Shown: positions 22,251 through 56,917, counted from the stretch's first letter. The stretch is DNA of 64,000 nucleotides from a virus (IMGVR_UViG_3300045988_163643:96001-160000); one strand, 5' to 3'. Made by a program: numbers and translations. The notes: a model not told the origin generated them from the sequence alone.

Positions 22251-22732
22251 ATGGCAAAAGCAAAAAAAGAAATAAAGAAAATAATATGTACTACTTGTGG
22301 AAGAGAATTGCCTGAAAAAGATTTTGGTAAATCTTACTCATTTAGAGACAAACTAAATGGAAGGTTACCAATTTGCAAAGACTGTTGTGCTAGTTTATAT
22401 GATAAGCTAATGGTAGATTATCAAGATGAAATGAAAGCATTATATAGATTTTGTATGATATTAGATTTATATTTTTCTAAGGATACAGTTATGGGATTAA
22501 TAAGTAAGAATAGAAATTCCGAAAGTAATCTTGGATATTTATATGTATTAAAATATAACTTAGTACAATATAAAAATAAAACATTCCAAGATACAACGGC
22601 ATTTGTAAATATATTTGGTATGACTGAAGAAGAAATGGAAGAAGCATTATATTTGAATACTGAAAAAACAAAAGAAGAAATAGAAAGAAAAACTAAAAAA
22701 ATAGTTACACCAGAAGTAATCAAACGTTGGGG
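22251..22732 (+). CDS. terS: putative terminase small subunit, exon 1 of 2
   Basis: gene immediately upstream of and overlapping terL; N-terminal CxxC...CxxC; the ORF-track tail 22733-22754 is read-through into the intron. Confidence 0.5.
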
Positions 22733-23101
22733 TAATTGCCCCCTATGTTTATAAAAAACATAGCAAACCTTTTGAATTGCTGGAAACCCCTAAAGCTTAA
22801 CACACTACAACGTGGCTAGAAATGGCGAACGTGAATGTTACGAAAGTAGAAAAAAGTTGTTAAGATGATATATGGTTAAATCCTAAGTATCTACAATAAT
22901 GGGCAATCAGCAACTAAGATTCTAAGTGATGATTTGTCATATGAATAAAGTCCAACGACTAGATAGGAATATCGTACACTCAAGCGAGTGGAAGTGGAAG
23001 GTATCCTATAAATATAGGATAATGATATAGTCTAATCTCATATGAAAGTATGAGCAGTCGAAAGACGGTATGTATGTAGCGAATACATATGAATATAAAT
23101 G
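22733..23101 (+). mobile_element. group I intron, family 1, ORF-less (369 nt; boundaries +/-1)
   Basis: P1 GGGG(T)/(G)CCCC; conserved blocks AATTGCTGG, CCTAAAGC, GGTTAAATCCTAAG, CAACGACTAG, GATATAGTCT; helix CTTAACA/TGTTAAG; removal joins the two ORFs in frame (999 nt). Confidence 0.8.
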
Positions 23102-23618
23102 TTCTGATTTAGAGTTAGACGATTATATTTTTCTCGAAGATAGATATAATCAGATGCTTTTAGCCTATGATGATAAGAATCCTTCATCCCTGTGGTCATA
23201 TCAAGAAATATGTATGAATTATTTACTCCTTAGAAAAGATAGGGGAAATGTTCAACTTCAAAAAAGTATCCAAGAAATTAATAGTAAATTACAAGCAGAT
23301 TGTAAAATGAAGTTATCGCAAATAGATAATGATGATGATGATAATGCTTGTTTTGGAAAGTTTATAGATAAAATAGAATTATATGAACCATGTAATAAAA
23401 AATTACCATTCTTTGAAGATATAGATGGAATAAGACAATACTTAAAAAGATGGTTCGTTTTGCCTTTTGCGAAACAGTGGAAACTAGCTAAAAATGATGT
23501 ATTAGAAGGAGAGGAAGGAATAGAAGATTATGAGGATGTAGATAAAATATATAATGAACAAAATAAGAATAAAGCTGAAGTAGAGAATGAAGTAGGTGAG
23601 GAAGACAATGACAAGTAG
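23102..23618 (+). CDS. terS: putative terminase small subunit, exon 2 of 2
   Basis: in frame with exon 1 after intron removal; the ATG at 23070 in the ORF track lies inside the intron. Confidence 0.5.
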
Positions 23619-24158
23619 TGTAAAAGAAAATATTGAAGAAGAAAAAATACTTTCTGACGAAGTCATGAAAAGTCCTCATAAAAAAAGAAGAAATTTATCC
23701 CAAAGAAAAAAAGATAGATTAAATGAAGGTATGAAAATATGGACTGCATTTTATCGTTTGAATATCCATAGATTCGCACTGGATTTTTTGGGACTTAATT
23801 TATATCCGTTCCAAATTATATTGCTTTATATGATGAATATAATGTATAGCACTTGCCTAATATGTGCCAGAGGGTTATCGAAATCATATATGACAGCAAT
23901 ATTTCTTTGTTGTAAAGCAATATTATATCCAAATAGTTTAATTGTAGTTTCTTGTTCAACTAAGGAACAAGCCAGAAATCTTATAAAGGAGAAGATAGCT
24001 AAAGAACTATGTTCTCAGTCGAAAATGTTAAATAGAGAAATTGCTAAAGTAGTCACCGGTACTAATGAAACAGTGGTAATCTTCAATAACGGTAGTACTA
24101 TTCAAGCAGTAAATGCTTCTCAAAATACAAGAGGTCTTCGTTGCCATGTACTCGTGGT
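23608..24158 (+). CDS. terL: terminase large subunit, exon 1 of 3
   Basis: Walker-A-like region and ...RGLRCHVLVV ending just before the Walker B DE; ATG 23608 (or GTG 23596) after GGTGAGG. Confidence 0.8.
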
Positions 24159-24481
24159 AGTTATCTGCCTAGATATACATATATATAAAAGTATATCCGT
24201 AATTGGGTAAAATCGGTAAAAGCTAAGTTCTTATAGAATATGCCAATACCGAGTTAACTGATAAAATTAAAAAGTTATCAGCAATGTAGAGCATAGTAGG
24301 TGAACCTTGCGAACTATTATTAGATAGTTCTTTTTAATTGCAAGAATATAATCTTACCAAGAGTACCCAACACCTTATTGTATAAGGTGAAAATGTATGC
24401 CAAGCTTGTAGGAAACTATAAGAGGTGGATGTGTGAATTGACACACTATTAATAGATAAAAAGCTCCACGATAAAACTTTG
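24159..24481 (+). mobile_element. group I-type intron, family 2, ORF-less (323 nt)
   Basis: exon ends GTGGT, intron ends G; helices covary with its sister intron (TTGGGTA/TACCCAA, CTGATAA/TTATCAG, CTTGC/GCAAG); removal gives ...HVLVVDEYRMIQ. Confidence 0.75.
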
Positions 24482-24645
24482 AGATGAGTACAGAATGATA
24501 CAAGGAGGTTTTGATACTTTAAACTCAGTATTAAGACCATTCTTAAACTGTGTTAGAATACCAAAATTTAAAAATAGAGATGATGGAAAATACGCAGATT
24601 ATCCAACTGAGGAAAACCAAGAAATTTACTTAAGTAGTGCGTGGT
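24482..24645 (+). CDS. terL: terminase large subunit, exon 2 of 3 (164 nt)
   Basis: encodes (V)DEYRMIQGGFDTLNSVLRPFLNCVRIPKF...EIYLSSAW, carrying the Walker B DE missing from exon 1; not called by the ORF track. Confidence 0.75.
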
Positions 24646-24751
24646 AAATTCGTGCCACTTTATATAGCGATATATAAAACAAATTGGGCAAAATCGGTCA
24701 TAGTAAATCGTGAGATTAAGCTGATAAGAGAGACTAAGTATTGTTTAAAAT

Positions 24752-24780
24752 TTTACTTTTAATAAAAAATATAGTATAAT
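24752..24780 (+). promoter_or_regulatory. phage-consensus promoter inside the intron, driving the endonuclease
   Basis: TTTACT 24752-24757, 17-nt spacer, TATAAT 24775-24780. Confidence 0.55.
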
Positions 24781-24805
24781 ATAAGTAATGGGGGTGAATA
24801 TTAAA

Positions 24806-25537
24806 ATGAATAAAATAACTACAGAAATAGCATTAAAACGAATTAATGATAAAATAAAAGAAACTAATACAACATTATATGTTGTTAATTTTGAATATGT
24901 AAAAAAGAAAAGTATAATTTATATGAAATGTAGAGTATGTGGAAAAGAAGTTGAAAGAGATTATTGGAGATTTATTCATGCAGGTGGAAAATGTGAATGC
25001 CAATATAAATATAGAAGATGGACTGAAGAAAGATGCATAGAATTAATAAAAAATAATGATTATAATGATGAATATGAATTTGTAAATTTCAATACAGGAG
25101 CTAATATTACAATAAAACATAACATATGTAATCATGAATTTACTAGAGCTTCTTGGAATATAAAAGACAATGGTTTAAAATGTCCATCATGTTATCCACT
25201 TGATAGTGCAGGAGAATTGAATATTGAGAATTATTTAAAATCAAAAAATATTTTATATCAAAAACAGAAAAGATTTAAAGGATGTAAAAATAAAAAGACA
25301 TTACCATTTGATTTTTATTTACCACAATATAATTGTTGTATAGAATTCGATGGCGAACAACATTTTAAACCTGTCGAACACTTAGGTGGAGAAAAACACT
25401 ATAATAATACAGTCATAAATGATGGAATAAAAAATGAATTTTGTAGAAAAAATAATATACTTTTATTAAGAGTACCTTTTTATAAAATAAATGATGTAAA
25501 TGATATTATTGAAAATTTTTTAAACAATATAAGTTAA
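24806..25537 (+). CDS. intron-encoded homing endonuclease: 2 zinc-ribbon repeats plus a Vsr/DUF559-like nuclease domain
   Basis: C-terminal LPFDFYLPQYNCCIEFDGEQHF...ILLLRVPFY shared with three other intron ORFs; ATG 24806 matches the SD spacing of its paralogs (the ORF track starts at 24788). Confidence 0.7.
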   Translation: MNKITTEIALKRINDKIKETNTTLYVVNFEYVKKKSIIYMKCRVCGKEVERDYWRFIHAGGKCECQYKYRRWTEERCIELIKNNDYNDEYEFVNFNTGANITIKHNICNHEFTRASWNIKDNGLKCPSCYPLDSAGELNIENYLKSKNILYQKQKRFKGCKNKKTLPFDFYLPQYNCCIEFDGEQHFKPVEHLGGEKHYNNTVINDGIKNEFCRKNNILLLRVPFYKINDVNDIIENFLNNIS

Positions 25538-25777: not shown

Positions 25778-26862
25778 TTGAGAATCATTGGAGTTACGAC
25801 CTTTATTCTTCTCATGTTAAGAAAATGTTAGCAGGTGATGATTATTTTGTATGTAATCTACCTTATCAATTATCTGCCTATCATGGAATATTAACTAAAA
25901 AAAGAATACAAGATATTTTATCAGATGAGAATATGTCGGAAATATCATTTACAATGGAATTTGAAGCATTATTTTATTCTGATAAAGATACTAGTTATTT
26001 TAAATCAAGTGATATATTACCTTGTAGAACATTGGAATATGCATGGTATCCTCCAACACCAGAGGAATATTATAGAAATAAAAATAAAGAGAAAAAGAGT
26101 TATTATTTAAAGAGATTAAATGATAAAGAACTTAGAGTAATCAGTTGTGATATAGCTTTAATGAACAGTAAAAATGGGCATGACAATGATAATGCCGTAT
26201 TTACTTTTATAAGAAGTATTCCAAAGAATCAAAATTATATATCACAAGTTTTATGGCAACAGACTCACGAAGGATATAAAGCTAAGCAATTAGCATTAAA
26301 TATAAAAAGATTATATTTTGATACTCAAAGTGATTATATAGTACTAGATACTGCCGGTAGTGGTATATCTGTATTAGATGAGTTAGGTGAATACACAACT
26401 GATGTAGAAAGAGGAATAGTTTATCCTCCATTAAAAGCAATGAATGATGAAAAATATGAAGAACGTTGTGGTTATTCAGAAGCACAAAAATCTATATTTT
26501 GTGTTAATGGTAGTACAAAGTTTAACCATGAAATTGCAGTAACTCTTAAAACAGCATTCCAAAATAAAACCATTAGATTATTAAAAACACAATTTGAAGC
26601 AGATGATTTTATAGAGGGATATAATAAAATGTCTCCTAAAGAACAAGCTGATAAATTGATGCCTTATGTTCAAACTTCTTTAATGCAAGATGAAATAACT
26701 CAATTGGAATATGAAGTAAAAGATTCTTATATTAAACTTTATGAAACAACAGGTAAACGTAAAGATAGATATTCAAGTTTAGCTTATGGTAATTATTTTA
26801 TAAGAGAAAGAGAAAAAAAATTAAAGAAAAAGAAAAAAGGTGGATTAGCTAATCTATGGTAG
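25778..26862 (+). CDS. terL: terminase large subunit, exon 3 of 3 (nuclease half)
   Basis: junction gives SSAW-FENHWSYDLY; exons total 1,800 nt (599 aa); the ORF-track start 25825 is internal. Confidence 0.8.
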
Positions 26863-26899
26863 TCTTATTAAAATATTGAGAAAGAAAGGGATGATATAA

Positions 26900-28660: not shown

Positions 28661-29216
28661 ATGGATAACAAGCTTAGACTACCTATTAAAAGATTTGAAA
28701 GTACAGATGAAGTTTTAGCTAATACAAATTTTAAAAAAGTTAAAATATACATTATGCATACAGGTGAAAATCTTAATCATTCTGTATTTTCATTAGATAG
28801 TATAAATGATTCAATAGATACACTTGCAAACATTCCAATATTGGCATTTGTTGAAAAAACTGATGGACAAGATAATAAAGATTTTGCAGGACATGAAACT
28901 GATTTAGATATATTCACAGATAAAGATGGAACAATTAAAGTAAGAGAATATTATAAAGAAGTACCTATTGGAGTAATACCTGAAAGTAATGAATATTTCT
29001 TTGAAGAAAAAGATGGAGAAACATACTTAGGGTGTTATGGTTACATATGGAAATGTTATTCTAATGATGCTTATGACATATTAGAAGAAGACCAAGAAAA
29101 AGAAGTTTCTATGGAAATTTATATAAATAATTGTTCTTATGATAGAAAACAAAGATGTAATATTAATAAATTTGAATTTCTTGGAGTAACAGTTTTAGGT
29201 GCAAAATATCCAGGAG
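28661..29216 (+). CDS. prohead scaffold/protease-like protein, exon 1 of 2
   Basis: ATG 28661 after GAAAGGAGGTG; lies between portal and capsid; the ORF-track tail 29217-29236 is intron read-through. Confidence 0.5.
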
Positions 29217-29623
29217 TAATTAGCTCCCTATATTAAGTGATTAGTATAGAAAATTCTCTGAATTGCTTGTAATCCCTAAAGTCAACTAAACTACAACGTG
29301 ATTGGAAACGATGAGCGTGAACGTGGCGAAAGCAGAAAAAATTAGTTGAATGGTATATGGTTAAACCCTAAGTACCATTGCAATGGGTGTCTAGCAGGTA
29401 AGATTCTAAGTTACTATATAAGTAATATGAATAAACTTCAACGACTATTGAAATAATTGTAAGAACCTTATTACAATTAAAGTAAAGTACTCTTAAGTAA
29501 GAGGAAGTAGAGAATGTCTTATTTAGTTAATGTAAGATAATGATATAGTCTCAACGTTTAGCGAAAGCTAAAGAAGTTCATAAGAGAACTGCGTAAGAAT
29601 AACGAACTTATGTGAAGATATTG
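29217..29623 (+). mobile_element. group I intron, family 1, ORF-less (407 nt)
   Basis: P1 GGAG(T)/(G)CTCC; family-1 core blocks; helix TCAACTA/TAGTTGA; 3' 80 nt almost identical to the intron at 46579-46914; removal restores the frame (1,770 nt). Confidence 0.8.
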
Positions 29624-30837
29624 CTATGGGGGAAGATTGTATACTTAGTATGAATTTTTCCAAAGAAGATGGTGAATATAAAGAATATTTATCTTCTGTT
29701 GAAAAATTAAATAAATTATTAAAATGTCAAAGAGAGGAGGGATTAAGTGTGGATGTAAATAAAGAAACTTCTACTGTTGAAAACAAAGAAGAATTTGCTG
29801 AAGAAAATAAAGACGAAGAAGTTTGTCCTACTTGTGGAAAAAATCCTTGCGAATGCAAAAAAGAAAATCATGCAGTTAATGATGATGAAGAAGATAAAGC
29901 AGATGACAAAGTAGATGATGATGAAGAAGATAAAGACAAGGATAAAGAAGATGAATCTTGCAAAAAGAAAAATCATGCAACTGAAGATAAAGCAGATGAT
30001 GATAAAAAAGAAGATAAAGAAGATGATGAATCTGACGATGACAAAGATAAAGAAGAAGATGATGATGATAAGTCAGATGAAGATGACAAAGATAAAGAAG
30101 ATGAATCTTGCAAAAAGAAAAATCATACAGTAGAAGATGACAAAGCAGACTTTGGACTTTCTTTAAATAATACATTTAAAGCCATAAGAAAGCAATTAGA
30201 ATCTTACACTTACGAATATGTGAGCTATTGGGGTGACACTTATACTTGGAGAAAATATTATGTAGTAGAATTAATCCCTGAAGATTCAGTTGTTGTTATA
30301 GAAGATGAAGAAGAAAATGAATTCTATGGAATAACTTATTCTATAAATAATGATGATGTTGCTTTAGATTTGGATAATAAAGTATTATATATTCAAGAAT
30401 GGAGAGCCAAAGAAACCAGTTCTGCTAGATTTGAAAATACTGATAAAAAAGAAAAATATACTACTAAAGATGAAGTATATCAAGCAGTTGGAAAAGAATT
30501 AAAAGAACTTAGACAATTTAAAGCTGATATAGAAGCTCAAGAAGAAAAAGCTCAATTCGATGAAAAAGTTAATACTATTTTATCACAATTTGAATTTAGT
30601 GAAGAAGAAACTTCTGATTTAGTAGAAAAAGTTTATAACAAATCAATTAATTTAGATATGTTTGAAACTTGCTTATTTGCTTTAGAAGCTAAAAAGAATA
30701 GAGCTGAAAAAGAAAAATTTGCTAAAATAGAAAAAGAAAACAGTTTAAATATAGTTGATTCTAAAAAAGAAGAACCAGCAAAACCAAAATCAAGATTTGA
30801 TTATCTATTAAAAGAATTTGGAAACAAAAATAAATAA
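29624..30837 (+). CDS. prohead scaffold/protease-like protein, exon 2 of 2
   Basis: acidic repeats carrying three ESCKKKNH motifs, then a coiled-coil C-terminus. Confidence 0.5.
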
Positions 30838-35907: not shown

Positions 35908-36052
35908 ATGGCTACACTTTTTGCTATAAAAGATGCTATAGATTTAAAAATAACTAAAAAAGGTGAACAAACAGTTTTCACTACAATAGACTACTTAAAT
36001 GACTGTCAAATAGAAATGGACTCAGAACAAGTATATGCACTTAAAAAAGGAG
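35908..36052 (+). CDS. major tail protein, exon 1 of 3
   Basis: ATG 35908 after AAGAAAGGTGA; not in the ORF track because an intron truncates it; MATLFAIKDAIDLKITKKGEQTVF... Confidence 0.6.
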
Positions 36053-36254
36053 TAATTTGCTCCCTATGTAAGTAAATTGCATAGCAAATCCTTTTAATTG
36101 CTGGAAACTCCTAAAGCTCAATTCACTACAACGTAAGGTTAAATCCTAAGCGTGAATGTTACGAAAGTAGAAAAAAGTAATTGAGATTACCCAAGGTTAA
36201 ATCCTAAAGGTGAATAAATGGACAATCAGCAGGTAAGATTTATATTTATTTTAC

Positions 36255-36283
36255 TTTACTTTTAATAATTAAATTTGTATAAT
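36255..36283 (+). promoter_or_regulatory. phage-consensus promoter inside the intron
   Basis: TTTACT 36255-36260, 17-nt spacer, TATAAT 36278-36283. Confidence 0.5.
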
Positions 36284-36307
36284 TTAAGTAAATGGAGGTG
36301 AAATTGA

Positions 36308-37249
36308 ATGGCTCAATATAATAAGAAATGGACTAAAGAAAGTATGATTAAATACATCGAAGATAATGGGTATAAATTTATTAGATTTGCTGAAGATTTT
36401 AGAGGATGCGAAACAAGAATCATTATATGGTGTAAAAATTCAAATCACAAACCTTATGAAGTTAGATTTCAACATTTTAAAAATAATAGACGATGTAAAC
36501 AATGTAGAAAAGAAGAAAAGGTAAAATGGACTAAAGAAAATATAATTAAACATGTTGAAAATAATGGATATAAATTTATTAATTTTATTGAATTTGATTA
36601 TTCTAAATCAATAATTGAAATTTGGTGTGGAAATCCTAATCACAAACATAAAATTTCTACATTTAACGATTTTCATCAAAATGGAAGATGTAGAGAATGT
36701 TCTAATGAAAATAAAATTGTATGGACTGAAGAATCTATAATAGACTATATAAAGAAAAATAATTATGAGTTTATAGAATTTATAAATTATAAAGGATATT
36801 TAAGCAGAATAAAAATAAGATGTAATAAACATAATTCTTATGAAGTTGATTTTGGAAATTTTAAAAATGGATTTAGATGCCCATATTGTAATATGGAAAA
36901 CATTGAATCAAAAGGTGAAAAAGAAGTTGAAAGAATATTAAATAAATTTCATATAGATTATAAAAAACAATATTCTTTTGAAGATTGTAAATATAAAAAA
37001 TATTTGCCATTTGATTTTTATTTACCTCAATATAATACATTGATTGAATATGATGGAGAATATCATTTTCAAATAATAGAACATTTTGGTGGATTTAATA
37101 AATTTGTTAACACAAAAATAAGAGATACTATTAAGAATATTTATTGTAAGAATAATAATATAAAACTTATAAGAATTCCTTATTGGGAATTTAATAATAT
37201 AGAAAATATATTAAACAAAGAGTTAAAAGTAAAAAATAAATATGAATAA
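36308..37249 (+). CDS. intron-encoded homing endonuclease: 3 zinc-ribbon repeats plus a Vsr/DUF559-like nuclease domain
   Basis: three WT(K/E)E..I..Y(I/V)E..GY(K/E)FI...C....H......F..G.RC..C units; LPFDFYLPQYNTLIEYDGEYHF...IKLIRIPYWE. Confidence 0.7.
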   Translation: MAQYNKKWTKESMIKYIEDNGYKFIRFAEDFRGCETRIIIWCKNSNHKPYEVRFQHFKNNRRCKQCRKEEKVKWTKENIIKHVENNGYKFINFIEFDYSKSIIEIWCGNPNHKHKISTFNDFHQNGRCRECSNENKIVWTEESIIDYIKKNNYEFIEFINYKGYLSRIKIRCNKHNSYEVDFGNFKNGFRCPYCNMENIESKGEKEVERILNKFHIDYKKQYSFEDCKYKKYLPFDFYLPQYNTLIEYDGEYHFQIIEHFGGFNKFVNTKIRDTIKNIYCKNNNIKLIRIPYWEFNNIENILNKELKVKNKYE

Positions 37250-37418
37250 ACTTCAACGACTATTCCGTAAGGAAGTAAAGTCACAAGCTATCGGTGGAAG
37301 AAATGGAGGATACCTAGAAATAGGTAGTGATATAGTCTGTTCTCATGTGAAAGCATGAGCAGTTTATATTGAATGAGTATAAACGATGTATGTGTAGCGA
37401 ACATATATGAACACAAAG

Positions 37419-37566: not shown

Positions 37567-37983
37567 TAACATATTATAAATATAATATAAAGCTTCGTAT
37601 ATACAGAAATGTGTATAGGACACAACTTTAATTGCAGGTAATCCCTAAAGCCTTACACCAAAACGGAAGGTGAAAACCTAAACGGCAATGGTACGAAAGT
37701 AGAAAAAACGTAAGGATGACATATGGTTAAATCCTAAGTGTTATAAATGATAATTTATATTATTATTTAAAATGGGTGTTCATGCAGGTAAGATTCTAAG
37801 TGATAATTTATCATATGAATAAACTTCAACGACTAGATAGGAATATCGTACACTCAAGCGAGTGGAAGTGGGTTGCCCTTAACAGGTAATGCTGAAGGTG
37901 AAGAAATAGTCTACTCTCATGTGAAAGCATGAGCAGTTCATAAGAGAACGTACATAATGTAGCGAATTATGTAGAATATAAGG
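37567..37983 (+). mobile_element. group I intron, family 1, ORF-less (417 nt)
   Basis: core blocks AATTGCAGG, CCTAAAGCC, CAACGACTAG, AATAGTCT; helix CCTTAC/GTAAGG; a TAA immediately upstream of exon 3 fixes the 3' junction. Confidence 0.8.
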
Positions 37984-45089: not shown

Positions 45090-45303
45090 TAACATACAGC
45101 CTCCTATATTAAGTAATTAGTATAGAAAATTTCTTTAATTGCTGGAAACTCCTAAAGCCTTACAAACTACAACGTAGAGTTAAAACTCAAGCGTGAATGT
45201 GGCGAAAGCAGAAAAAATTGTAAGGATTACCCAAGGTTAAATCCTAAAGGTGAATGAATGGACAATCAGCAGGTAAGATTCTAAATTAAATTATTTTAAA
45301 TAT

Positions 45304-45332
45304 TTGACTTTTAATAATAAAATGAGTATAAT
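45304..45332 (+). promoter_or_regulatory. phage-consensus promoter inside the intron
   Basis: TTGACT 45304-45309, 17-nt spacer, TATAAT 45327-45332. Confidence 0.55.
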
Positions 45333-45355
45333 ATAAGTAAAGTGAGGTGATTAAA

Positions 45356-46252
45356 ATGGGAAGAAAATGGGATTATGAAAAAGTTAAAGAATATATAGAA
45401 AATTTTAAATATAAATTATTAAGTGAGGAATACAAAAATAATAAAATTAAATTATTAATTAAATGTGATAAAGGACATGTATTTAAATGTTCATTTCATA
45501 ATTTTAAAGATAGAGACTCTAGATGTCCGTATTGTAATGGTAAAAAAATAACATATGATATGGTCAAGTTTTACATTGAATCTTACAATTATAAATTATT
45601 AAATGAAGATTATGTTGATAATTCTACTAAATTGTTAATAGAATGCGATAAAGGGCATACGTTTAAAATGCGATGGAATAATTTTCAACAAGGGCAAAGA
45701 TGTCCTATATGTGATAAAAGTCATAAAAAGAATTATAAAGATGTAAAAATAGAATTAGAAAAAGAAGGTTATGAATTAATATCGAGCAAATATAAGAATA
45801 GTAAAGAAAAATTATTAATCATGTGTCCTAATGGTCATACATATGAAACAAGTTGGAATAATTTTCAAAGAGGAAGAAGATGTCCAATGTGTAATATAAC
45901 AAAAGGAGAAAAAAAGATAAAAGAAATATTAGATAATAATAAAATAGAATATATGTATAATAAAAAATACTTTAAAGATTTAAAAGGAATAAATGGAGGA
46001 TTATTAAGACCAGACTTTGTAATACCATCATTAAGAATATGGATTGAATATGATGGTATACAACATTTTGAACCTAAAGATTTTGCTGGTAAAGGTGAAG
46101 AATGGGCTAAAAAAGAATTCGTTTTAAGAAAAATGAAAGATAAAATAAAAGATGAGTATGCTAAAGAACATGATTGGAAATTAATAAGAATACCTTATTG
46201 GGAATATGATAATATAGAAAACATATTAATAAAAGAATTAAATTTAAAATAA
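45356..46252 (+). CDS. intron-encoded homing endonuclease: 3 zinc-ribbon repeats plus a Vsr/DUF559-like nuclease domain
   Basis: repeats Y..VK.YIE...YKLL.E.Y.....KLLI.C..GH.F......F..G.RCP.C; RPDFVIPSLRIWIEYDGIQHF...WKLIRIPYWE. Confidence 0.7.
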   Translation: MGRKWDYEKVKEYIENFKYKLLSEEYKNNKIKLLIKCDKGHVFKCSFHNFKDRDSRCPYCNGKKITYDMVKFYIESYNYKLLNEDYVDNSTKLLIECDKGHTFKMRWNNFQQGQRCPICDKSHKKNYKDVKIELEKEGYELISSKYKNSKEKLLIMCPNGHTYETSWNNFQRGRRCPMCNITKGEKKIKEILDNNKIEYMYNKKYFKDLKGINGGLLRPDFVIPSLRIWIEYDGIQHFEPKDFAGKGEEWAKKEFVLRKMKDKIKDEYAKEHDWKLIRIPYWEYDNIENILIKELNLK

Positions 46253-46431
46253 TTTAACAAGAATAAACTTCAACGACTAGAACGCAAGTTCGTAGGGTGT
46301 AAGCGATTGACACTCGAAATGGGAAACAATCAAAAACGGGTTGATGATATAGTCTGCTCTCATGGGAAACCATGAGCAGTTTTCATATAAAGAAAACGGA
46401 TTAAGTGTAGCGAACTTAATTGAACAAGAGG

Positions 46432-46578
46432 CAATGGACTTGGTCAATTATGCAGGCAATAATTTTGCGATTTCATCTGATGGTGTAACAGAAGCATTAC
46501 AACGTGGTGGTTCTGTATTATCTAACTATGGAGTAGATTTAAAAGATTCTATCGCAATGATAACTGGGGCAAATGAGT
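46432..46578 (+). CDS. tape measure protein, exon 2 of 5 (147 nt)
   Basis: AMDLVNYAGNNFAISSDGVTEALQRGGSVLSNYGVDLKDSIAMITGANE, part of the conserved TMP core. Confidence 0.7.
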
Positions 46579-46914
46579 TAAATATGGCTCTTTTATATAG
46601 TAATATATAATTAAATTTTCTTGAATTGACAGGGACTCCCTTAGAGCTTTACACACTAACTTATGATAGAAATATACATAAGGGCATTGCTAACCACAAT
46701 GATATAGTAAAAGAGGTAAAGATTGGGAAATCTGCATCTAAGATTCTAAGTTGTGTAAACAATATGAATAAAGTTCAACGACTAAGTATCCTAGTAGTCT
46801 AGGTAGTGGGAAACCTCCTATTGAAGGAGGAAGATATAGTCTCAACGTTTAGTGAAAGCTAAAGAAGTTCATAAGAGAACTGCGTAAGAATAACGAACTT
46901 ATGTGAAGATATTG
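46579..46914 (+). mobile_element. group I intron, family 1, ORF-less (336 nt)
   Basis: P1 GAGT(T)/(G)GCTC; divergent 5' core (AATTGACAGGGACTCCCTTAGAGC); helix CTTTAC/GTAAAG; 3' end near-identical to the intron at 29217-29623. Confidence 0.75.
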
Positions 46915-49900: not shown

Positions 49901-52900
49901 TGATGAAATATTAAAGAAGTTAAAAGAAACAGATGGGCAAGAAAGTAATCCTAAAATAAACGTAGAAGGAGATACTTCAGGTGCCGAGAAAGTAAAAAAA
50001 GAAGTAGATGAAGTAGGCAATAAAAAAGGGACAGCTAAAGCTGATGTAGATGGAGATACTTCAGGAGCTGAAAAAGTAGAAAAAGAAGTAGACAATGTAA
50101 ATGGAAAAAAAGGTACTGCTGAAGCAAATGTGGATGGCAATACTGAAGGTGCTGAAAAAGTAGAAAAAGAAGTAGACAATGTAAATGGGAAAAAAGGTAC
50201 TGCTAATGTAGATATTAAAGCAGATACCTCTGAAGCTGAAAAAGCTAAAAAAGAAGTAGATAATTTAGCAGTCAACAAAAATGGTACAGTTACTTTATTA
50301 GTAAATGGTCAAGAAAAAATAGCTGAAGCTAAAATTAATAAAGGTCAATTAGAAGTAAATGGTCAAGCAGTTACAACTATTTCTGTTAACGGTAAAGACC
50401 AATTACCAATAGCTATTAATGAAAAAGGTCAATTAGAAGTAAATGGTCAAGCTATAACTAATATAGATGTTAATGGTAAAGACCAATTAACTTTAGCTAG
50501 AAATGAAAAAGGTCAATTAGAAGTAAATGGTCAAGCTATAACTAATATAGATGTTAATGGTAAAGACCAATTAACTTTAGCTAGAAATGAAAAAGGTCAA
50601 TTAGAAGTAAATGGTCAAGCTATAACTAATATAGATGTTAATGGTAAAGAAAAAGTTTCTGAAGCAAAAAAAGAAGTTGATGATTTAACCAAAGATAATA
50701 AAAATGTTAGTATTAATATTGATGTTTCATTAAAAGAAACTGTTGGTGAAATATTATCAAGATTTGGATTAAATAAGAAAACAGAAAATGTTGAAATTAA
50801 TGTAACATGTAATGATAATGCAACTCCAGTATTAGAAAAAATAATGGCAAGACAAGATAAAACTATACAAATAAAAGTAGATTGTCAAGATAATGCAACT
50901 TCTAAAATAAACAATATAACTAAAATAGGAAATAAAACTGTAACAGTTACAATAAATTGTCAAGATAATGCAACTTCTAAAATAAATAGTATAGCTAGTA
51001 TGGGTAATAAATCTGTAACAGTTACTATAAATTGTCAAGACAACGCAAGTTCTACAATAAATAGAGTTACAAGTGCACCTTCTTCTAAAGCAATAAATGT
51101 TGTAGTAACTTGTACAAATGGTGGAGCAGTTCTTAATACTCTTTCTCAATTAGCTAGTAAAGTAATACCTAGTAAAAAATTTACTATAAATTGTACAGAT
51201 AGTGCTAGTAGTGTAGTAAGTAGAGTTAATGGTTTAAAAATATCTGATAAGAAATTTACTATAAATTGTACAGATAATGCAACTGCTAAAATAAATAAGG
51301 TTATTAGTAAAAAAATACCAAATAAATCATTTACTATAAGTTGTAATGATAATGCTAGTGGTAAATTAAGTAGTATTATAAGTAAAATAAGTAATATTCG
51401 TAGTAAATCAGTAACAATTACTACTAATCATGTAAGTACAGGTAAGAGTTCATCTATTGGTGAACCAACAGTTGTTGATTTACAACCTCAACCATTTAGT
51501 GCTCAAGCTTCTAATCCTCAAGTACAATCATTAGGAGAACAAGTTCAAGTATTAAATGATAGTGTGCAACAACAAACTGACAATAACAATGAAGTTAGTG
51601 TAATGGCTAAGAAGACATATAAAGCTAATATTGATACAGGTTTAACAGTAAGTGCAGTTAAATATAATATTGATTTATTAACTAACATGACTAATATGCT
51701 TAAAAAATTAGGAACTCAAGTTGATATATTAAAAGCTAAACAAGAAAGAACTTGGGGTACTGCAAGTGCTAAGTTACTTAGAAATCAAATTTCTTTACTA
51801 ACTAAACAACAAGATTTAACTAAAATAAATATTAAAAACATGGAAGGTATGGCTAAAAAACTTAAAGGTAGTTTACAAAAACAAGGATTTAAGTTTAAAG
51901 ATGACGGAACAATAAGTAATTACAATAGTAAACTTGTAAAAATGCAAAAAAATGTTGAAAGTTTAGAGAAAGCTGAAAAAGCACTAGAAGACCAAATAAG
52001 TAAAACTGAAAAACAAATTTCAAAATCTGAAAAGAAATCTTCAAGTAAGAAAAAATCAACTAGTAAGAAAAAGAAAAGTACTAGTAAGAAAAAGAGTACG
52101 AGCAAAAAGAAGAAAACTTCAAGTAAAAAGAAATCAACTAAGAAAAAGAGCACTAAGAAGAAAACTACTAAGAAGAAGAGTGCTAGTAGAAGCAATAGAA
52201 AAACTACATCAAGTAAAGCTAGTAAAAAGAAGACTACTAAGAAGAAAAAATCAACTAGTAAGAAAAAGAGTACATCAACTAAGAAGAAGAGTACTAAAAA
52301 GAGTACTAAAAAGAAAACTACTTCTAAGAAGAAATCAACCACTAAGAAGAAGAGTACATCTTCAAGCAAGAAATCAAAAGCAACTAAAGCATTAGAAAAG
52401 AAAAAGAGCGGATTAGAAAAGAAAAAGGATGCAATAAGCAAACAATTAGAAAAAGCACAAAAAGAATTATCAGAAACTCAAAGCAAATTAAATGAATATT
52501 ATAATTTACAATTTAGTGAAATTCCTGAAGCTCAACAACAATGGGAAGAATATGCTAATGCAATAGCTGAAGCTAAAGCAGAAATAATTAGATGTGAATT
52601 AGAAGCTAAAACATTCTTTAAGACAATTAAGATGGAAATGAAAGATGCTATGATTAGCAGAAATGAAACTTGGGCAGATACATTTATGTTGAAGGCTGAT
52701 TTAAGTAGTTGGTCTAAAGCAATAGGATATATTAAAGAAGCTAATAAATTATTAGCAAAAAATCAACAACATCAACAATCTAAATTAGAAACAGCTCAAG
52801 CAAGAGCGGAAGATAATAAAGCATTTTTAAAGAAACAAGGATTTAAATTTGATAAAAATGGATATGTAACAGGTGCTGAAAAAACTTTACAAAAACTTAA

Positions 52901-54402
52901 AAAGAAGAAATCATCACAAGAATACGATGCTATAAAAGAAGCATTTGATAGTTACGTTGATGATATGTATGAAAATATTCCTAAAGCTGAAAATGAATGG
53001 TGGAAATTAGAACAAGAAATAAAAGAAAATGAAAGACAAATAAAAGAAACTACTAAATCTATGAATGATTTAGTTAATTCAGCTAAAGTAGATAAATTAA
53101 CTAGACAATTTGATGTACTTTCAAATACTTTAGATATATTAGACCTTAAAATGGAACGTGCATATGGAGCTAATAAAATAGACTATATGAAACAACAACT
53201 TGATATATTATCTAATATGAAAAGTAAGAATCAAGAAATCATTAATCAAAATACTGAGTTATTAAATAATAGTAAGAAACAATTAGTTAAATATGGTGTT
53301 ACATTTGATGAAGATGGTAATATAGATAATCTATCAAAAGCATTGAAAAAATTAGATAATCTACAAGATATGGAAGATTTAAAAGATTTAGCTGATGAAT
53401 ATAATGATTACAAAGATTCAATAGATGATGCTAGTAAATCAATTGAAGAAGAAACTAATAAACAACTTGAATTAAAAGATTCAATGATGGAAATTAGAGA
53501 AGAAATGAGAAAACTTAGAGATGATGCATGGGTTAAAACTTATGAAAATGGTCTAAAAGTTATTCAAAATCGTATTGATACAATAGATTCTTTATTAGAT
53601 TTGGAAGATGAAAATCAATTTGGTTTACTAAATCAAAAAATTGAAGAATATAAGAATTTAACTAAAGCGACTGAGGATAGTTTGGCTTATCAAAAACATA
53701 GAAAAATCACTATGCAAAAAACATTGATTGATTATGGTTTCACTATTAATGATGATGGTACAATAGATGGAACTGCTAATAAATTAGAACAACTTAAAAA
53801 TACATTATCTGAAACTGAATTTGGTATAGTAAGTGATACATTAGAAGATTATTTTGATACTGCTTTAGATACAATTCCTGAATTAGAAAGAGAATTAATA
53901 AAATATCAAAAAGATTTAAAAGATATACAAAATACTAAACTAGAAAAGACTAAAACTATTGAAGAAAAAATTACTGAAATATATAATGATGAAATAGATA
54001 AAAGAACTAAAAAGATACAAGAAGAAGCAGAAACACAAACTAAAGCACTTAATAAAGCCAAAGAATCTTATCAGAGATGGAGAGACGAAGTTGACTATAA
54101 AGATGATTATAATAAACAATTAAAAACTGTTGAAGATTTACAAAAGAAAATAGAAATAGCAAAACGTGATGACAGCTTAACTGGACAAAAACGTTTAGCT
54201 GATTTGATGAAAGAATTAAAAGAAGAACAAGAAAATCTTGAAGATTTAGTTCAAGACAAAATAGATTCAGATATAAATAACATGTTTGATGACCAAATAG
54301 ATAAAATAGAAGAAAATTCTGATGAAGAAGTTAAGAATTTGGAAAAAACATGGTCAGAAAGCAAAATAGCTGAAATGGTTAAACAAGCACTTGATACTGG
54401 AG
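46915..54402 (+). CDS. tape measure protein, exon 3 of 5
   Basis: begins (S)LQDPARIGNGLKSIAINLSG..., the conserved TMP core; hydrophobic Gly-rich segment; several repeat arrays; the ORF-track start 47031 is internal. Confidence 0.8.
49961..50270 (+). repeat. about four imperfect 75-84-nt coding repeats
   Basis: encode (V/A)DGDTSGAEKVEKEVDNVNGKKGTA units. Confidence 0.6.
50337..50650 (+). repeat. 84-nt tandem repeat, 2 perfect copies plus a near-complete third and one degenerate leading copy
   Basis: GAAAAAGGTCAATTAGAAGTAAATGGTCAAGCTATAACTAATATAGATGTTAATGGTAAAGACCAATTAACTTTAGCTAGAAAT at 50421, 50505 and 50589 (third copy truncated). Confidence 0.85.
50790..51430 (+). repeat. about 8 diverged coding repeats (INCxDNAxxKIN units)
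   Basis: recurrent VTVTINCQDNATSKIN / FTINCTDNATAKIN peptides. Confidence 0.6.
52020..52430 (+). repeat. low-complexity Lys/Ser/Thr tract (about 125 aa) inside the tape measure
   Basis: SKKKSTSKKKKSTSKKKSTSKKKKTSSKKKSTKKK... Confidence 0.8.
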
Positions 54403-54749
54403 TAAATTAGCTCCTTTTACTAAGTAATTAGTATTAAAACTCATTGAATTGCTGGAACTTCCTAAAGCTAACTAAACTACAATATGGCTAGAAATGGCGA
54501 ATATGAATGTGGCGAAAGCAGAAAAAATTAGTTAGATATTCATATGGTTAAATCCTAAGTGAATGTAAATGGATAATCAGCAGGGAAGTCCCTTTAAAAT
54601 GGGAAACCTTCAACGACTATATATACTAGTAGTCTAGTTAGTGGTGAGCATCCTTATAGGATGATGATATAGTCTACTCTCATGTGAAAGCATGAGCAGT
54701 TCATAAGAGAACGGTATAAGGTTTAACGAACTTTATATGAATGTTAAGG
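54403..54749 (+). mobile_element. group I intron, family 1, ORF-less (347 nt)
   Basis: P1 GGAG(T)/(G)CTCC; core blocks; helix CTAACT/AGTTAG. Confidence 0.8.
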
Positions 54750-54840
54750 TGTTTACAGATATCGATGGGAATATAAAAACTCTTCAAACAGCATTAATGG
54801 ATTTTGCTAATGAAAGTTCTGATTATTTTGGAGTTATGGG
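54750..54840 (+). CDS. tape measure protein, exon 4 of 5 (91-nt micro-exon)
   Basis: encodes (V)FTDIDGNIKTLQTALMDFANESSDYFGVMG; open only in this frame; not in the ORF track. Confidence 0.65.
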
Positions 54841-55051
54841 TAATGTTGCCCTAGTCGTAGAGTAATTTGCGACTGAAAATAGATTTAATTGCAGGTAATT
54901 CCTAAAGCCTTACACCACAAGTATTCTGAAAAGAGATACTGAAGGTACGAAAGTAGAAAAAACGTAAGGATGAATATAAGGTTAAACCCTAAGTATTCGT
55001 AATAATGGATGTTCATGCAGGTAAGATTCTAAATTAAATTATTTTAAATAT

Positions 55052-55080
55052 TTGACTTTTAATAATAAAATGAGTATAAT
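55052..55080 (+). promoter_or_regulatory. phage-consensus promoter inside the intron
   Basis: TTGACT 55052-55057, 17-nt spacer, TATAAT 55075-55080; surrounding sequence identical to 45268-45345. Confidence 0.55.
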
Positions 55081-55102
55081 ATAAGTAAAGCGAGGTGATT
55101 AA

Positions 55103-56431
55103 ATGGCAAAAAGAAAAAGATATACATATCAAGATGTTAAAAATATTGTTGAAAATGAAAATTATGAATTAATAAGTACAGAAAATGAAATTATTGATGA
55201 AAAGGGATTTGTTAAAACATCAACTAAAATAACAGTATGGTGTAAAAATGAAAATCATAATTATATAAAACCTCAATTAAGTAAGTTTCTCAAAGGGGGT
55301 AGATGTGGAAAGTGCAGAAATGATAATAAAAAACTTGATTATAAATATGTAAAAGAATATGTTGAATCATTTGGATATAAATTATTATCAAAAGAGTATA
55401 AAAATAATTCAACGGATTTGTTAATTGAATGTCCATTAGAACATAAGTTTAAAATGATTTTTAATAATTTTAAAAAAGGACAAAGATGTCCCAAATGTGG
55501 TGAAATAAAAAGAAGAGAAAAAAGAACGATATGGAATAAAGAAAAAATAATTAATTTTGTGAAAAATAGTAATTATGAATTTATCAAATTTGTTAAATTT
55601 GACAAATTAAACTCAAGAATATTAATAAAATGTAATAATAAAAAACATGAGTCATATGAAGTTACTTTTGCTAATTTTAAAAATGGAAAAAGATGTCCGT
55701 ACTGTTCTAATCATGTAAAATTTGATTATAAATATGTAAAAGAATATATTGAATCATTTGGATACAAGTTATTATCAAAAGAATATAAAAATACAAATGA
55801 ATATATTTTAATAAAATGCCCTGATGAAAATCATAAACCTTATTTAGTTAAATTTTCTTCTTTTAAAAATCAAGAAACTAGATGTCCTTATTGTCAAAAT
55901 AAAAAAAGAGGATTATATAGAAAGTTTGATTATAAATATGTAAAAGAATATGTTGAATCATTTGGATATAAATTGTTATCAAAAGAATATAAAAATTGTG
56001 ATGAAAAACTAAAAATAGAATGTAATAAAGGACATATTTATGAAGTATCTTTTTATTGTTTTAAAAATTTAAATACAAGATGTCCTATATGTAATGAGAG
56101 CAAGGGAGAAATAAAAATAAGAGAGATACTTAATAAATATGATATAAAATTTACTCCTCAAAAGAAATATAGTAAATTAATTGGAATTAAAGGCAGACAA
56201 TTGTCTTATGATTTTTATTTACCTTTATATAACACATTGATAGAATATCAAGGAGAATATCATGATGGTACGGGATATAATCAAACTAAAGAAAAATTTG
56301 AAACCCAAAAAGAACACGATAAAAGAAAAAGAAATTACGCTAAAGACAATAACATAAAATTATTAGAAATATGGTATTATGATTTTGATAATATAGAAAA
56401 TATATTAATAAAAGAATTGAATTTAAAATAA
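55103..56431 (+). CDS. intron-encoded homing endonuclease: 5 zinc-ribbon repeats plus a Vsr/DUF559-like nuclease domain
   Basis: five (F)DYKYVKEY(V/I)ESFGYKLLSKEYKN...C....H......F.....RCP.C units; SYDFYLPLYNTLIEYQGEYHD...IKLLEIWYYD. Confidence 0.7.
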   Translation: MAKRKRYTYQDVKNIVENENYELISTENEIIDEKGFVKTSTKITVWCKNENHNYIKPQLSKFLKGGRCGKCRNDNKKLDYKYVKEYVESFGYKLLSKEYKNNSTDLLIECPLEHKFKMIFNNFKKGQRCPKCGEIKRREKRTIWNKEKIINFVKNSNYEFIKFVKFDKLNSRILIKCNNKKHESYEVTFANFKNGKRCPYCSNHVKFDYKYVKEYIESFGYKLLSKEYKNTNEYILIKCPDENHKPYLVKFSSFKNQETRCPYCQNKKRGLYRKFDYKYVKEYVESFGYKLLSKEYKNCDEKLKIECNKGHIYEVSFYCFKNLNTRCPICNESKGEIKIREILNKYDIKFTPQKKYSKLIGIKGRQLSYDFYLPLYNTLIEYQGEYHDGTGYNQTKEKFETQKEHDKRKRNYAKDNNIKLLEIWYYDFDNIENILIKELNLK

Positions 56432-56607
56432 TTTAACAAGAATAAACTTCAACGACTAGAACGCAAGTTCGTAGGGTGTAAGCGATTGACACTCGAAAAG
56501 GTCTACCCTTAATATTAAGGTGAAGAAATAGTCTAGTCACTCTAGGAAACTAGGTGCTTAGAATTAACTAAGGTTTATAGTGTAGCGACTATAAATAAAT
56601 ATTAACG

Positions 56608-56917
56608 TGATAGCTTAAAGAAAGAATTATTAGACAATCTTAATGTAGCATTGGAAACTATGAAAGAACTTCAAAAAATGTCAGATAATTATACAGCTCC
56701 TAATATAGATTATAGTAATACGGTACTTCCAAAAGATAGTACTATTAATACTTCTCCACAAGTTTCTAGTAATGTTGAAACTAATAATATTACAATTGGA
56801 GATACAAATATTACAATTCAAGGTAGTGCAGATGATGTTACTTTAGGAAAAGTAGATGAAATGTTAAAAGATTACAAAGCAAGTATTTGTAAGGAAATTG
56901 TTAAAAATATGAAATAA
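56608..56917 (+). CDS. tape measure protein, exon 5 of 5
   Basis: junction gives GVMG-DSLKKELLDNLN...; the five exons total 13,152 nt (4,383 aa). Confidence 0.7.

What the first reader, a model, noticed from the sequence alone, without database searches (positions are those of the whole stretch)
22728..56610. Family-1 introns: frame restoration conflicts by 1 nt with the canonical U-G 5' splice rule
In all eight family-1 introns, the only excision that restores the frame starts at the T that, by P1 covariation, pairs with the first G of the internal guide. It ends at a G about 10 nt after the GYAGCGAA hairpin. The excised segments are 22733-23101, 29217-29623, 36053-37418, 37567-37983, 45090-46431, 46579-46914, 54403-54749 and 54841-56607. 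Every intron therefore reads UAA...G. In 7 of 8 the last exon nucleotide is G, paired to C, rather than the near-universal U of a U-G wobble. Only 46578/46579 (GAGU|U) is canonical. Applying both textbook rules together (exon ends in that U, intron ends in omega-G) leaves one extra nucleotide and frameshifts all seven genes. A TAA codon directly upstream of major-tail exon 3 (37979-37981) excludes alternative 3' sites there. So one of three things holds. The 5' cleavage occurs one position upstream of the wobble pair, or the 3' site lies one nucleotide past the G, or P1 forms differently from the covariation-supported model. The two family-2 terL introns obey both canonical rules, which argues against a systematic error in my frame analysis.
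Basis: seen in the sequence. Interest (0 to 1): 0.65.

Follow-up and report, generated by a model that had tools for sequence, protein, structure and literature searches.

The report
Phage introns cut before the wobble U
Eight self-splicing group I introns in this phage's structural genes really are removed one nucleotide upstream of the textbook U-G splice signal; this rare quirk was already shown by experiment in related transposon-borne introns (group B IStrons), and its mechanism is still unexplained.

Summary
The window comes from an SPbeta/phiCD211-like siphophage. The eight segments are homologous group I ribozymes: Rfam RF00028 scores 85, 54 and 91 bits for introns 1, 2 and 7.

The eighth site is supported by a gapless protein alignment. 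So the U that pairs with the guide-sequence G is the first intron base, and the 5' exon ends in G (7 of 8) or U (1 of 8). In a relative it ends in A, paired to U, with boundaries that are unique.

This is not new in kind. Tourasse et al. 2014 described the same shift in group B IStrons and confirmed it by RT-PCR for BcISt1. The window's ribozymes are close relatives of those (71% identity to the C. botulinum phage c-st element; an exact shared 21-nt motif). They carry endonuclease-type ORFs or none, not transposases.

One addition: the first 3'-exon base is a pyrimidine at 10 of 11 sites, which suggests the guide G re-pairs with it (P10).

Verdict: new members of a known, rare kind; the mechanism remains open.

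The parts
22733..23101 (+). Family-1 group I intron 1 (369 nt, no ORF) in gene A (PHROG 3314, next to terL). P1: exon 22729-22732 GGGG, U+1 at 22733, guide G at 22738, guide CCCC at 22739-22742. Loop motif GTAGCGAA at 23076.
   Evidence: Rfam RF00028 at 85.3 bits. Intron-less alleles L116 and L117 read TTGGGG|CTCGGA. Coordinates.
29217..29623 (+). Intron 2 (407 nt, no ORF) in gene B (YonD_N / prohead-protease-like). P1: exon GGAG at 29213-29216, U+1 at 29217, guide G at 29223, CTCC at 29224-29227.
   Evidence: RF00028 at 53.7 bits. Intron-less alleles L008 and L012 read GGAG|CTATGG. The junction Ala is kept in all uninterrupted homologues checked.
36053..37418 (+). Intron 3 (1366 nt) in gene C (YomU-like tail tube). 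It carries ORF 36308-37249. P1: exon GGAG at 36049-36052, guide G at 36059, CTCC at 36060-36063.
   Evidence: Six intron-less alleles read GGAG|ATAAC. More than 300 uninterrupted homologues of 182-184 aa match the 183-aa spliced product.
37567..37983 (+). Intron 4 (417 nt, no ORF) in gene C. It has an extended P1 loop with a hairpin. P1: exon AAG at 37564-37566, guide G at 37592, CTT at 37593-37595.
   Evidence: Intron-less alleles read CAAAG|TTATAC. An in-frame TAA lies at 37979-37981.
45090..46431 (+). Intron 5 (1342 nt) in the tape measure gene D. It carries ORF 45347-46252. P1: exon GAGG at 45086-45089, guide G at 45099, CCTC at 45100-45103.
   Evidence: L010 and L012 are uninterrupted at this site and read GA(G/A)G|C(A/G)ATGG.
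46579..46914 (+). Intron 6 (336 nt, no ORF) in gene D. P1: exon GAGT at 46575-46578, guide G at 46586 opposite U+1, and GCTC at 46587-46590, where U(-1) pairs with G46587. The boundaries are unique because the -1 base is U.
   Evidence: L010 and L012 read GAAT|CTTTAC. The Ser/Thr at this position in phiCD211 and Sundance favours S over L.
54403..54749 (+). Intron 7 (347 nt, no ORF) in gene D. P1: exon GGAG at 54399-54402, guide G at 54410, CTCC at 54411-54414.
   Evidence: RF00028 at 91 bits. The same intron sits at the same site in L109 and L111-L114. The junction is supported only at protein level, by L110.
54841..56607 (+). Intron 8 (1767 nt) in gene D. It carries ORF 55103-56431. P1: exon GGG at 54838-54840, guide G at 54848, CCC at 54849-54851.
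   Evidence: Intron-less alleles L109, L111 and L113 read TATGGG|TGATTC.
36308..37249 (+). Intron-encoded ORF of 313 aa, endonuclease-like, with its own promoter-like sequence upstream (36246-36321).
   Evidence: PHROG 559 'HNH endonuclease' at 4.5e-64. Pfam CapR domain. Promoter-like repeat families D14 and D16.
45347..46252 (+). Intron-encoded ORF of 301 aa, endonuclease-like.
   Evidence: PHROG 559 at 1.4e-72. Pfam DUF4379 treble-clef zinc finger plus CapR.
55103..56431 (+). Intron-encoded ORF of 442 aa, endonuclease-like.
   Evidence: PHROG 559 at 1.8e-89. Pfam CapR plus DUF4379.

Best explanation
The eight segments are self-splicing group I introns that resemble phage IA2 introns. They belong to the ribozyme lineage that also forms the intron half of group B IStrons.

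Shown: each element is exactly U...G. The 5' exon ends in a base that is Watson-Crick or wobble paired to the guide sequence. The conserved guide G lies opposite the intron's own first base, U(+1). The 5' cut therefore falls one base pair upstream of the U-G pair that normally marks the site. The 3' cut is normal, after a terminal G.

Inferred: the external guanosine attacks the phosphate 5' of U(+1). U(+1)-G acts as a P1-extension pair, not as the cleavage-site pair. After step 1 the guide G is freed and re-pairs with the first 3'-exon base (C or U), forming the first pair of P10. Both chemical steps then run in the same register, shifted by one pair.

Inferred: because the -1 base can be G, U or A, the shift is a property of the ribozyme. 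It is not a by-product of a transposase's GG target.
For: Boundaries.
- Gapless alignment of the spliced junctions to intron-less alleles at 7 of 8 sites, and at protein level at the eighth.
- The boundaries are unique at i6 (-1 = U) and at X2 in L019 and L021: GGAA|UAAC...UAAGG|CAUUAAC, against intron-less GGAA|CATTAAC in the window, L010, L012, L013 and L018.
- X1 in L018 reads AGGGG|UAAC...AAACG|CAGAAC, against the window's AGAGGTAGAAC.

Group I identity. RF00028 scores 85, 54 and 91 bits. All eight copies share the conserved core blocks.

Lineage.
- The best GenBank phage hits for intron 1 are the C. botulinum phage c-st and D-1873 elements, at 71% identity over 325 nt.
- c-st reads GAGG|UAAC...CAACGG. 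The Bacillus phage LY2 portal element reads GGAG|UAAC...CAACGG.
- The 21-nt motif GAGMAGTTCATAAGAGAACKG recurs exactly in 85 stretches. Many are multi-copy elements in B. cereus-group genomes, and others are in Romboutsia, Clostridium and Lysinibacillus.

Precedent. Tourasse, Stabell and Kolsto 2014 (PMC4227781) report that group B IStrons have a 5' exon ending in G and that the U is the first base of the element. They showed this with IStron-less homologues and with RT-PCR of ligated exons and of the full-length circle for BcISt1.

P10 idea. The first 3'-exon base is a pyrimidine at 7 of 8 window sites, and at 10 of 11 when X1-X3 are added. The pyrimidine fraction of the exons is 0.389, giving binomial P = 0.007 and 0.0006. 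At X3 the guide base is A, and both U(+1) and the 3'-exon U can pair with it. P10 extends to 3 pairs at i2 and i6.
Against: - No RNA data exist for this phage. Splicing and the exact chemistry are inferred.
- In seven introns the pair (exon G, terminal G) allows a formally equal excision shifted one base to the left. That intron would begin with G and end in a non-G base, which is implausible but cannot be excluded from DNA alone.
- The P10 reading fails at i3, where the first 3'-exon base is A, and most P10 helices would be only 1-3 pairs.
- J4/5, the usual wobble receptor, reads AAA both in the one window intron compared by eye (i1) and in two apparently canonical relatives. Nothing in the core sequence explains the shift.
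- A family-1-like intron in relatives (X4: GCUGG-U-UAG...UUAAG-G-AAUAAC) can be read as canonical. The same lineage may therefore use both registers, and U(+1)-G pairing may not be the determinant.
Confidence: 0.85

Rival explanations
1. The shift is real, but U(+1)-G does not form in the active ribozyme. P1 is closed by the ordinary pair at -1 (G-C, A-U or U-G). The intron starts with an unpaired UAR (UAA/UAG/UGA) loop motif that fixes the cut immediately 5' of it. The conserved G serves only P10. On this view these ribozymes have no wobble pair at the reaction site at all.
For: Across the window introns and the site-2, X1-X3 and X4 introns read in relatives, the intron starts with UAA, UGA (site-2 variants in L018, L021 and L022) or, on the canonical reading of X4, UAG, whether or not that U lies opposite the G. 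The apparently canonical relatives L007 (GGAU|UAAUUC) and L016 (GGUU|UAAUU) would also be cut just 5' of UAA. The enrichment of pyrimidine at the first 3'-exon base fits a G reserved for P10.
Against: U(+1) and the guide G are invariant in the window. In X3 the G-to-A change keeps pairing with U(+1), which suggests the pair matters. In the published BcISt1 work one partial circle lacks only the first base, which may mean the U-G site is itself reactive (PMC4227781). No experiment separates the two views.
Confidence: 0.25
2. The 5' cut is canonical, after the U. The frame is restored because the 3' cut lies one base past the G, so the last intron base is U, C or A.
For: At i1, i4, i7 and i8 the first 3'-exon base is T, so this would give the same mRNA there.
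Against: At i2, i3, i5 and i6, and at X1 and X2, it predicts exon sequences that differ from every intron-less allele. At i2 it would replace an Ala kept in all uninterrupted homologues checked, and at i6 a Ser/Thr. At i1 the intron-less alleles have C, not T, after GGGG. It also abandons the terminal G that all eight introns keep.
Confidence: 0.02
3. Both textbook rules hold, so the mRNA keeps one extra U. The genes would then be frameshifted pseudogenes, or rescued during translation, or the extra T would be an assembly error.
For: None beyond the textbook rule itself.
Against: The eight sites lie in four virion or packaging genes (a terL-adjacent gene, the protease-like gene, the tail tube and the tape measure). 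The same structure occurs in several independently assembled contigs (L010, L018-L022, L109-L114). The spliced products match uninterrupted homologues in length and sequence. In BcISt1 the ligated exons lack the U.
Confidence: 0.01

Closest known systems
Intron component of group B IStrons (BcISt1 of B. cereus ATCC 10987; CbISt elements of C. botulinum and of its phages c-st and D-1873), Tourasse et al. 2014, NAR 42:12333
   Same: Same ribozyme lineage: 71% identity over 325 nt to the c-st element, an exact shared 21-nt motif 5' of the last hairpin, and the same loop type (..AGCG.. / ..AACG..) in that hairpin. Same anomaly: the 5' exon ends in G, the element begins with a U that lies opposite the guide G, and that U-G pair directly borders a loop. 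Target sites are similar (GGGG, GAGG, UGGG, GGAG).
   Different: No IS607/IS605 transposase or TnpB genes. Three copies carry endonuclease-type ORFs (PHROG 559; DUF4379 and CapR) and five carry none. The 3' ends are not CGG. No long AU-rich inverted-repeat stem was seen. Each intron sits at a conserved site in a phage structural gene, as homing introns do. The -1 base can also be U, or A in a relative, so the site is not tied to a GG target.
Turicibacter IA2 intron noted by Tourasse et al. 2014 as a plain intron similar to CbISt1 and CbISt4, with homing site GGAGG
   Same: An ordinary group I intron without an IS part, related to group B IStron ribozymes, and inserted after a G-ending site.
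   Different: Known to me only from the paper's text. Its sequence was not retrieved or compared here. It is a single chromosomal intron, whereas this case has eight copies in one phage, plus at least three further sites in relatives.
Canonical phage IA2 introns (T4 td, Staphylococcus phage Twort orf142-I2, and the kayvirus and silviavirus tail-tube introns)
   Same: Same overall fold by the Rfam model. The intron begins with UAA, has a short P1 next to P2, carries optional endonuclease ORFs, and inserts into conserved phage genes. The core blocks are about 75% identical to Staphylococcus phage introns.
   Different: In those introns the exon ends in the U that pairs with the guide G (td GGGU|UAAUUG, from my own knowledge; L016 GGUU|UAAUU and L007 GGAU|UAAUUC, read by eye). 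Here that exon U is missing, and the intron's own first U takes its place opposite the G.
Family-2 introns of the same phage group (two in terL of the window; in relatives one further site in terL (L010) and sites in the tape measure gene (L010, L012))
   Same: Same genomes and, for terL and the tape measure gene, the same host genes as family 1. Also group I-like.
   Different: Their exons end in GGU opposite GCC or GCCA(C). They read canonically at both ends. This shows that the shift is specific to the family-1 ribozyme and is not an artefact of frame analysis.

Membership tests
Group I intron (Rfam RF00028) | Covariance-model match above the curated threshold (the P3-P9 core with the P7 guanosine site) | tested here: met
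   i1 85.3 bits, i2 53.7, i7 91.0, against a threshold of 50. The other five share the same core blocks but were not scored one by one.
Group I intron (Rfam RF00028) | The last intron base is G | tested here: met
   All eight end in G, and intron-less alleles place the boundary there.
Group I intron (Rfam RF00028) | The 5' exon ends in a U that forms a U-G wobble with the internal guide sequence | tested here: not met
   The exon ends in G paired to C in 7 of 8. In i6 it ends in U paired to G, but the conserved guide G still lies opposite the intron's U(+1). The same exception is documented for group B IStrons.
Group I intron (Rfam RF00028) | Guanosine-initiated self-splicing | not testable with these tools
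   No RNA data. Inferred from homology and from the intact reading frames after excision.
Subgroup IA2 | Extra helices P7.1/P7.2 between P3' and P7, and the extended P9 region typical of phage introns | tested here: inconclusive
   The Rfam alignments show 20-57 nt insertions between P7 and the 3' strand of P3, and extra hairpins after P9. No dedicated subgroup model was run. The IStron relatives are classed IA2 in PMC4227781.
Group B IStron | The 5' exon ends in G (GG-ending target), and the U of the U-G pair is the first base of the element | tested here: met
   GGGG, GAGG and UGGG at i1, i5 and i8. GGAG or AAAG at i2, i3, i4 and i7. GAGU at i6 is the exception.
Group B IStron | An IS607-type component: a serine-recombinase ORF A and/or a TnpB-like ORF B near the 3' end of the element | tested here: not met
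   The intron ORFs hit PHROG 559 'HNH endonuclease' and Pfam DUF4379 and CapR. Five introns have no ORF.
Group B IStron | The 3' terminus is CGG, preceded by a long AU-rich inverted-repeat stem | tested here: not met
   The 3' ends are AATG, ATTG, AAAG, AAGG, GAGG, ATTG, AAGG and AACG. c-st and LY2 end in CAACGG. The inverted-repeat stem was not searched for explicitly.
Homing (endonuclease-mobilised) group I intron | Presence/absence polymorphism at identical conserved sites among close relatives, with an endonuclease ORF inside some copies | tested here: met
   Each site is occupied in some relatives and empty in others (L008-L022, L109-L118). Endonuclease activity itself was not tested.

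The most novel reading that the evidence does not exclude
This ribozyme lineage may set its 5' cut by intron-side features (the U(+1)-G pair and/or the UAR start of the P1 loop). It may accept any paired base at -1; G, U and A are seen. It may also work in the canonical register when the exon supplies the U, as the relatives' X4 intron suggests. That would make it a natural group I ribozyme with no requirement for an exon-terminal U, and it would explain how it colonised both GG-targeting IS607 transposons and many U-less sites in phage genes.
Probability: 0.45. Interest if true: 0.6.

Novelty: new member of a known kind. Interest (0 to 1): 0.4.

Why it matters
[quoted passage not shown] Group B IStrons were the documented exception, and their authors asked in 2014 how the site is chosen. 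In the IStron papers I checked, the question is not taken up.

This window shows three things. First, the exception is not tied to transposon biology: it occurs in ordinary phage introns that carry endonuclease-type ORFs or no ORF. Second, it occurs at many independent sites: eight here and at least three more in relatives. Third, the -1 base varies (G, U, A) and is always paired.

That amounts to a ready-made natural mutational series, with canonical family-2 introns in the same genomes as controls. It can be used to test what defines the cut. A ribozyme that does not need an exon U could also relax target and scar constraints in trans-splicing and circular-RNA designs. This last point is my inference and was not tested.

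Tried and rejected
- An Rfam 'evalue' scan of 20000-58000 listed no group I hit at all, although the gathering-threshold run and sub-window runs score 54-91 bits. I treated this as a filter effect and re-ran small windows.
- The Rfam alignment of P1 is unreliable. It puts U(+1) in the model's conserved-U column for i1 and i7 but not for i2, so I did not use it as evidence of homology of that U.
- Megablast of 24 kb against GenBank phages found no close relative. A protein-seeded scan of genome contigs with the tube protein found nothing, so the host remains unknown. The protein hits carry names pointing to Clostridium sp. and Peptostreptococcaceae.
- Alternative canonical solutions, with the 5' cut after the U and another in-frame G:
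  - i1 at G23081 would add 7 aa, and i2 at G29612 would add 4 aa. Gapless alignments to homologues and to intron-less DNA reject both.
  - At i3 I found no suitable G within about 25 nt upstream of the junction (read by eye).
- A 'ruler' from P2: neither the number of exon pairs (3-4 in shifted introns, 4-5 in apparently canonical relatives) nor the P1-P2 linker length (0-2 nt) separates the two types.
- J4/5 is AAA in both types, in the few sequences compared by eye. No core difference was found.
- My automatic guide-sequence finder mis-assigned i5 and i8. I fixed these by hand.
- The Sternberg-lab IStron papers (preprint 10.1101/2023.11.20.567912 and PMC13521648) do not discuss the 5' site.

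Full report
What is in the window. The region belongs to a large SPbeta/phiCD211-like siphophage. It has no close GenBank relative. Gene order and protein matches (YonD_N, YonB, YomW, YomV, YomU tube, tape measure) link it to phiCD211, Brevibacillus phage Sundance and Staphylococcus SPbeta-like phages. The eight family-1 segments share long conserved blocks. Rfam's group I model scores 85.3 bits on intron 1, 53.7 on intron 2 and 91.0 on intron 7. Three copies carry endonuclease-type ORFs (PHROG 559; Pfam DUF4379 and CapR) and five carry none.

Checking the observation. At the given coordinates every segment starts with TAA and ends with G. The last exon base is G in seven cases and T in one. 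Excision gives open fusions: a 332-aa protein, a 589-aa protease-like protein, a 183-aa tube protein and a 4331-aa tape measure protein. In each case three or four exon bases pair with the bases just 3' of an invariant G, and the intron's first T lies opposite that G.

The decisive test was to find uninterrupted alleles. Protein searches returned a 96%-identical uninterrupted copy of gene B (P0001 on L008). They also returned more than 300 uninterrupted tube proteins of 182-184 aa. DNA of close relatives was then fetched (L008-L015, L018-L023, L109-L118). Spliced queries of 90+90 nt align without gaps across the junction as follows:
- i1: TTGGGG|CTCGGA
- i2: GGAG|CTATGG
- i3: GGAG|ATAAC
- i4: CAAAG|TTATAC
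- i5: GA(G/A)G|C(A/G)ATGG
- i6: GAAT|CTTTAC
- i8: TATGGG|TGATTC

For i7 every close relative carries the intron. A 47%-identical homologue (L110) aligns without a gap across both sites: ALDTGVFTDIDG against ALSTGVFEDIDG. The only formal ambiguity is a one-base slide to the left where both the exon and the intron end in G. No such slide is possible at i6.

A 3' site one base past the G would change the exon at i2, i3, i5 and i6, and it disagrees with every intron-less allele. At i2 it would turn an Ala that every uninterrupted homologue checked keeps into Val. Other in-frame canonical solutions would add 7 aa at i1 and 4 aa at i2, and the homologues lack these insertions. A different P1 cannot create an exon-terminal U in the seven introns whose exon ends in G. 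The first option remains: the cut lies one pair upstream of the U-G.

Relatives add three more shifted sites, with the window itself serving as the empty allele:
- X1: AGGGG|UAAC...AAACG|CAGAAC.
- X2, in the tube gene: ACAGGAA|UAAC...UAAGG|CAUUAAC. Here the -1 base is A, paired to U of the guide GUUCC, and the boundaries are unique.
- X3: GAACUG|UAAC...AACG|UCAAG. Here the guide base opposite U(+1) is A.

What is already known. Tourasse, Stabell and Kolsto (NAR 2014, PMC4227781) divided IStrons into groups A and B. They reported that in group B the last 5'-exon base is G. [quoted passage not shown] They showed this with IStron-less homologues. For BcISt1 they also sequenced RT-PCR products of the ligated exons and of the full-length circle. 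In addition they noted a plain IA2 intron in Turicibacter, similar to CbISt1 and CbISt4, with a GGAGG homing site.

The window's ribozymes belong to this lineage:
- The best GenBank phage hits for intron 1 are the C. botulinum phage c-st and D-1873 elements, at 71% identity over 325 nt.
- c-st reads GAGG|UAAC...CAACGG, and a Bacillus phage LY2 portal element reads GGAG|UAAC...CAACGG.
- The 21-nt motif GAGMAGTTCATAAGAGAACKG is found exactly in 85 genomic stretches. Many are multi-copy elements in B. cereus-group genomes, and others are in Romboutsia, Clostridium and Lysinibacillus.

The window's introns are not IStrons. They have no transposase or TnpB gene and no CGG end. They show the site-specific presence/absence pattern typical of homing introns.

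How it most likely works. Shown: the element is U...G, the -1 base is always paired to the guide, and the conserved guide G faces the intron's U(+1). Inferred: guanosine attacks 5' of U(+1), so U(+1)-G is a P1-extension pair and not the reaction-site pair.

I add one observation. The first 3'-exon base is a pyrimidine at 7 of 8 window sites and at 10 of 11 when X1-X3 are included, while only 39% of exon bases are pyrimidines (binomial P = 0.007 and 0.0006). That base could pair with the same guide G (C-G three times and U-G four times in the window). P10 would then extend to three pairs at i2 and i6. This suggests that in step 2 the 3' exon replaces U(+1) on the G, which would keep both steps in the same shifted register.

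A rival reading is that U(+1)-G never forms and that the cut is fixed just 5' of the UAR motif with which the introns read here begin. The intron X4 in relatives (GCUGG-U-UAG...UUAAG-G-AAUAAC) can be read either way. If it is canonical, it favours that rival. I found no difference in J4/5 (AAA) and no P2 'ruler' that separates shifted from canonical relatives.

Controls. The family-2 introns have exons ending in GGU opposite GCC or GCCA(C), and they read canonically. This holds in terL of the window, and in terL and the tape measure gene of relatives. L012's intron, spliced canonically, reproduces the window's LVNYAG.

Verdict. However, the phenomenon has been published and experimentally confirmed in homologous ribozymes. 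The window's introns are new members of a known, rare kind. The new points are:
- the context: ordinary phage introns, with eight copies in four virion or packaging genes;
- the variable -1 base, which decouples the shift from the IS607 GG target;
- the bias towards pyrimidine at the first 3'-exon base.
The mechanism of site choice remains open.

Noticed in passing
window 39974-56760 (exons 39974-45089, 46432-46578, 46915-54402, 54750-54840, 56608-~56760): The tape measure gene encodes about 4331 aa and is split by four introns. Two of its exons are very short, at 147 and 91 nt. It contains tandem 84-nt and 75-nt repeats (49933-50659 and 50803-51376) and a K/S/T-rich low-complexity stretch (52012-52370).
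   Followed up: partly
window 20691-20737, 24743-24818, 36246-36321, 45295-45370, 55043-55118: A repeated promoter-like block (TTGACT/TTTACT, then about 17 nt, then TATAAT, then AAGTAAAG and a ribosome-binding site) sits directly upstream of the three family-1 intron ORFs, of the ORF at 24788-25537 between the terL exons, and at 20691. The intron ORFs seem to have their own promoters. The blocks at 45269-45355 and 55017-55103 are 99% identical.
   Followed up: no
L010 16803-18238 (relatives L018, L019, L020 and L022 alike); corresponds to window 46449-46458: In relatives, a canonical family-2 intron (TTGGT|AATTG...CAATAG|) is followed after a micro-exon of only 12-13 nt (AAATTACGCTGG(T)) by a family-1-like intron. 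The conserved tape-measure motif region holds at least five distinct intron sites within about 250 nt of spliced coding sequence: the window's i5 and i6, these two, and one 38 nt past the i6 site in L010. phiCD211 also has an annotated group I intron close by.
   Followed up: partly
L018 478, L021 412, L022 503 (same site as window intron 2): The site-2 intron of relatives begins with UGA, not UAA, with the same guide sequence (GGAG|UGAUUAGCUCC). The second base is therefore free, while the U is kept.
   Followed up: no
L010 148-455; corresponds to window 26358-26362: A relative carries an extra family-2 intron in terL (CTGGT|GAAATTACGCCAC...) at a site that is empty in the window. Intron content differs at many sites among near-identical phages.
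   Followed up: partly
window 20000-58000: The Rfam 'evalue' scan of this 38-kb stretch returned none of the group I matches that score 54-91 bits when searched with the gathering threshold or in 500-nt sub-windows. A negative result from that mode on long stretches should not be trusted.
   Followed up: yes
window 29854-30098: Gene B has a long, repetitive, acidic D/E/K-rich linker with Cys-containing KKENH repeats. Its length varies among homologues.
   Followed up: no
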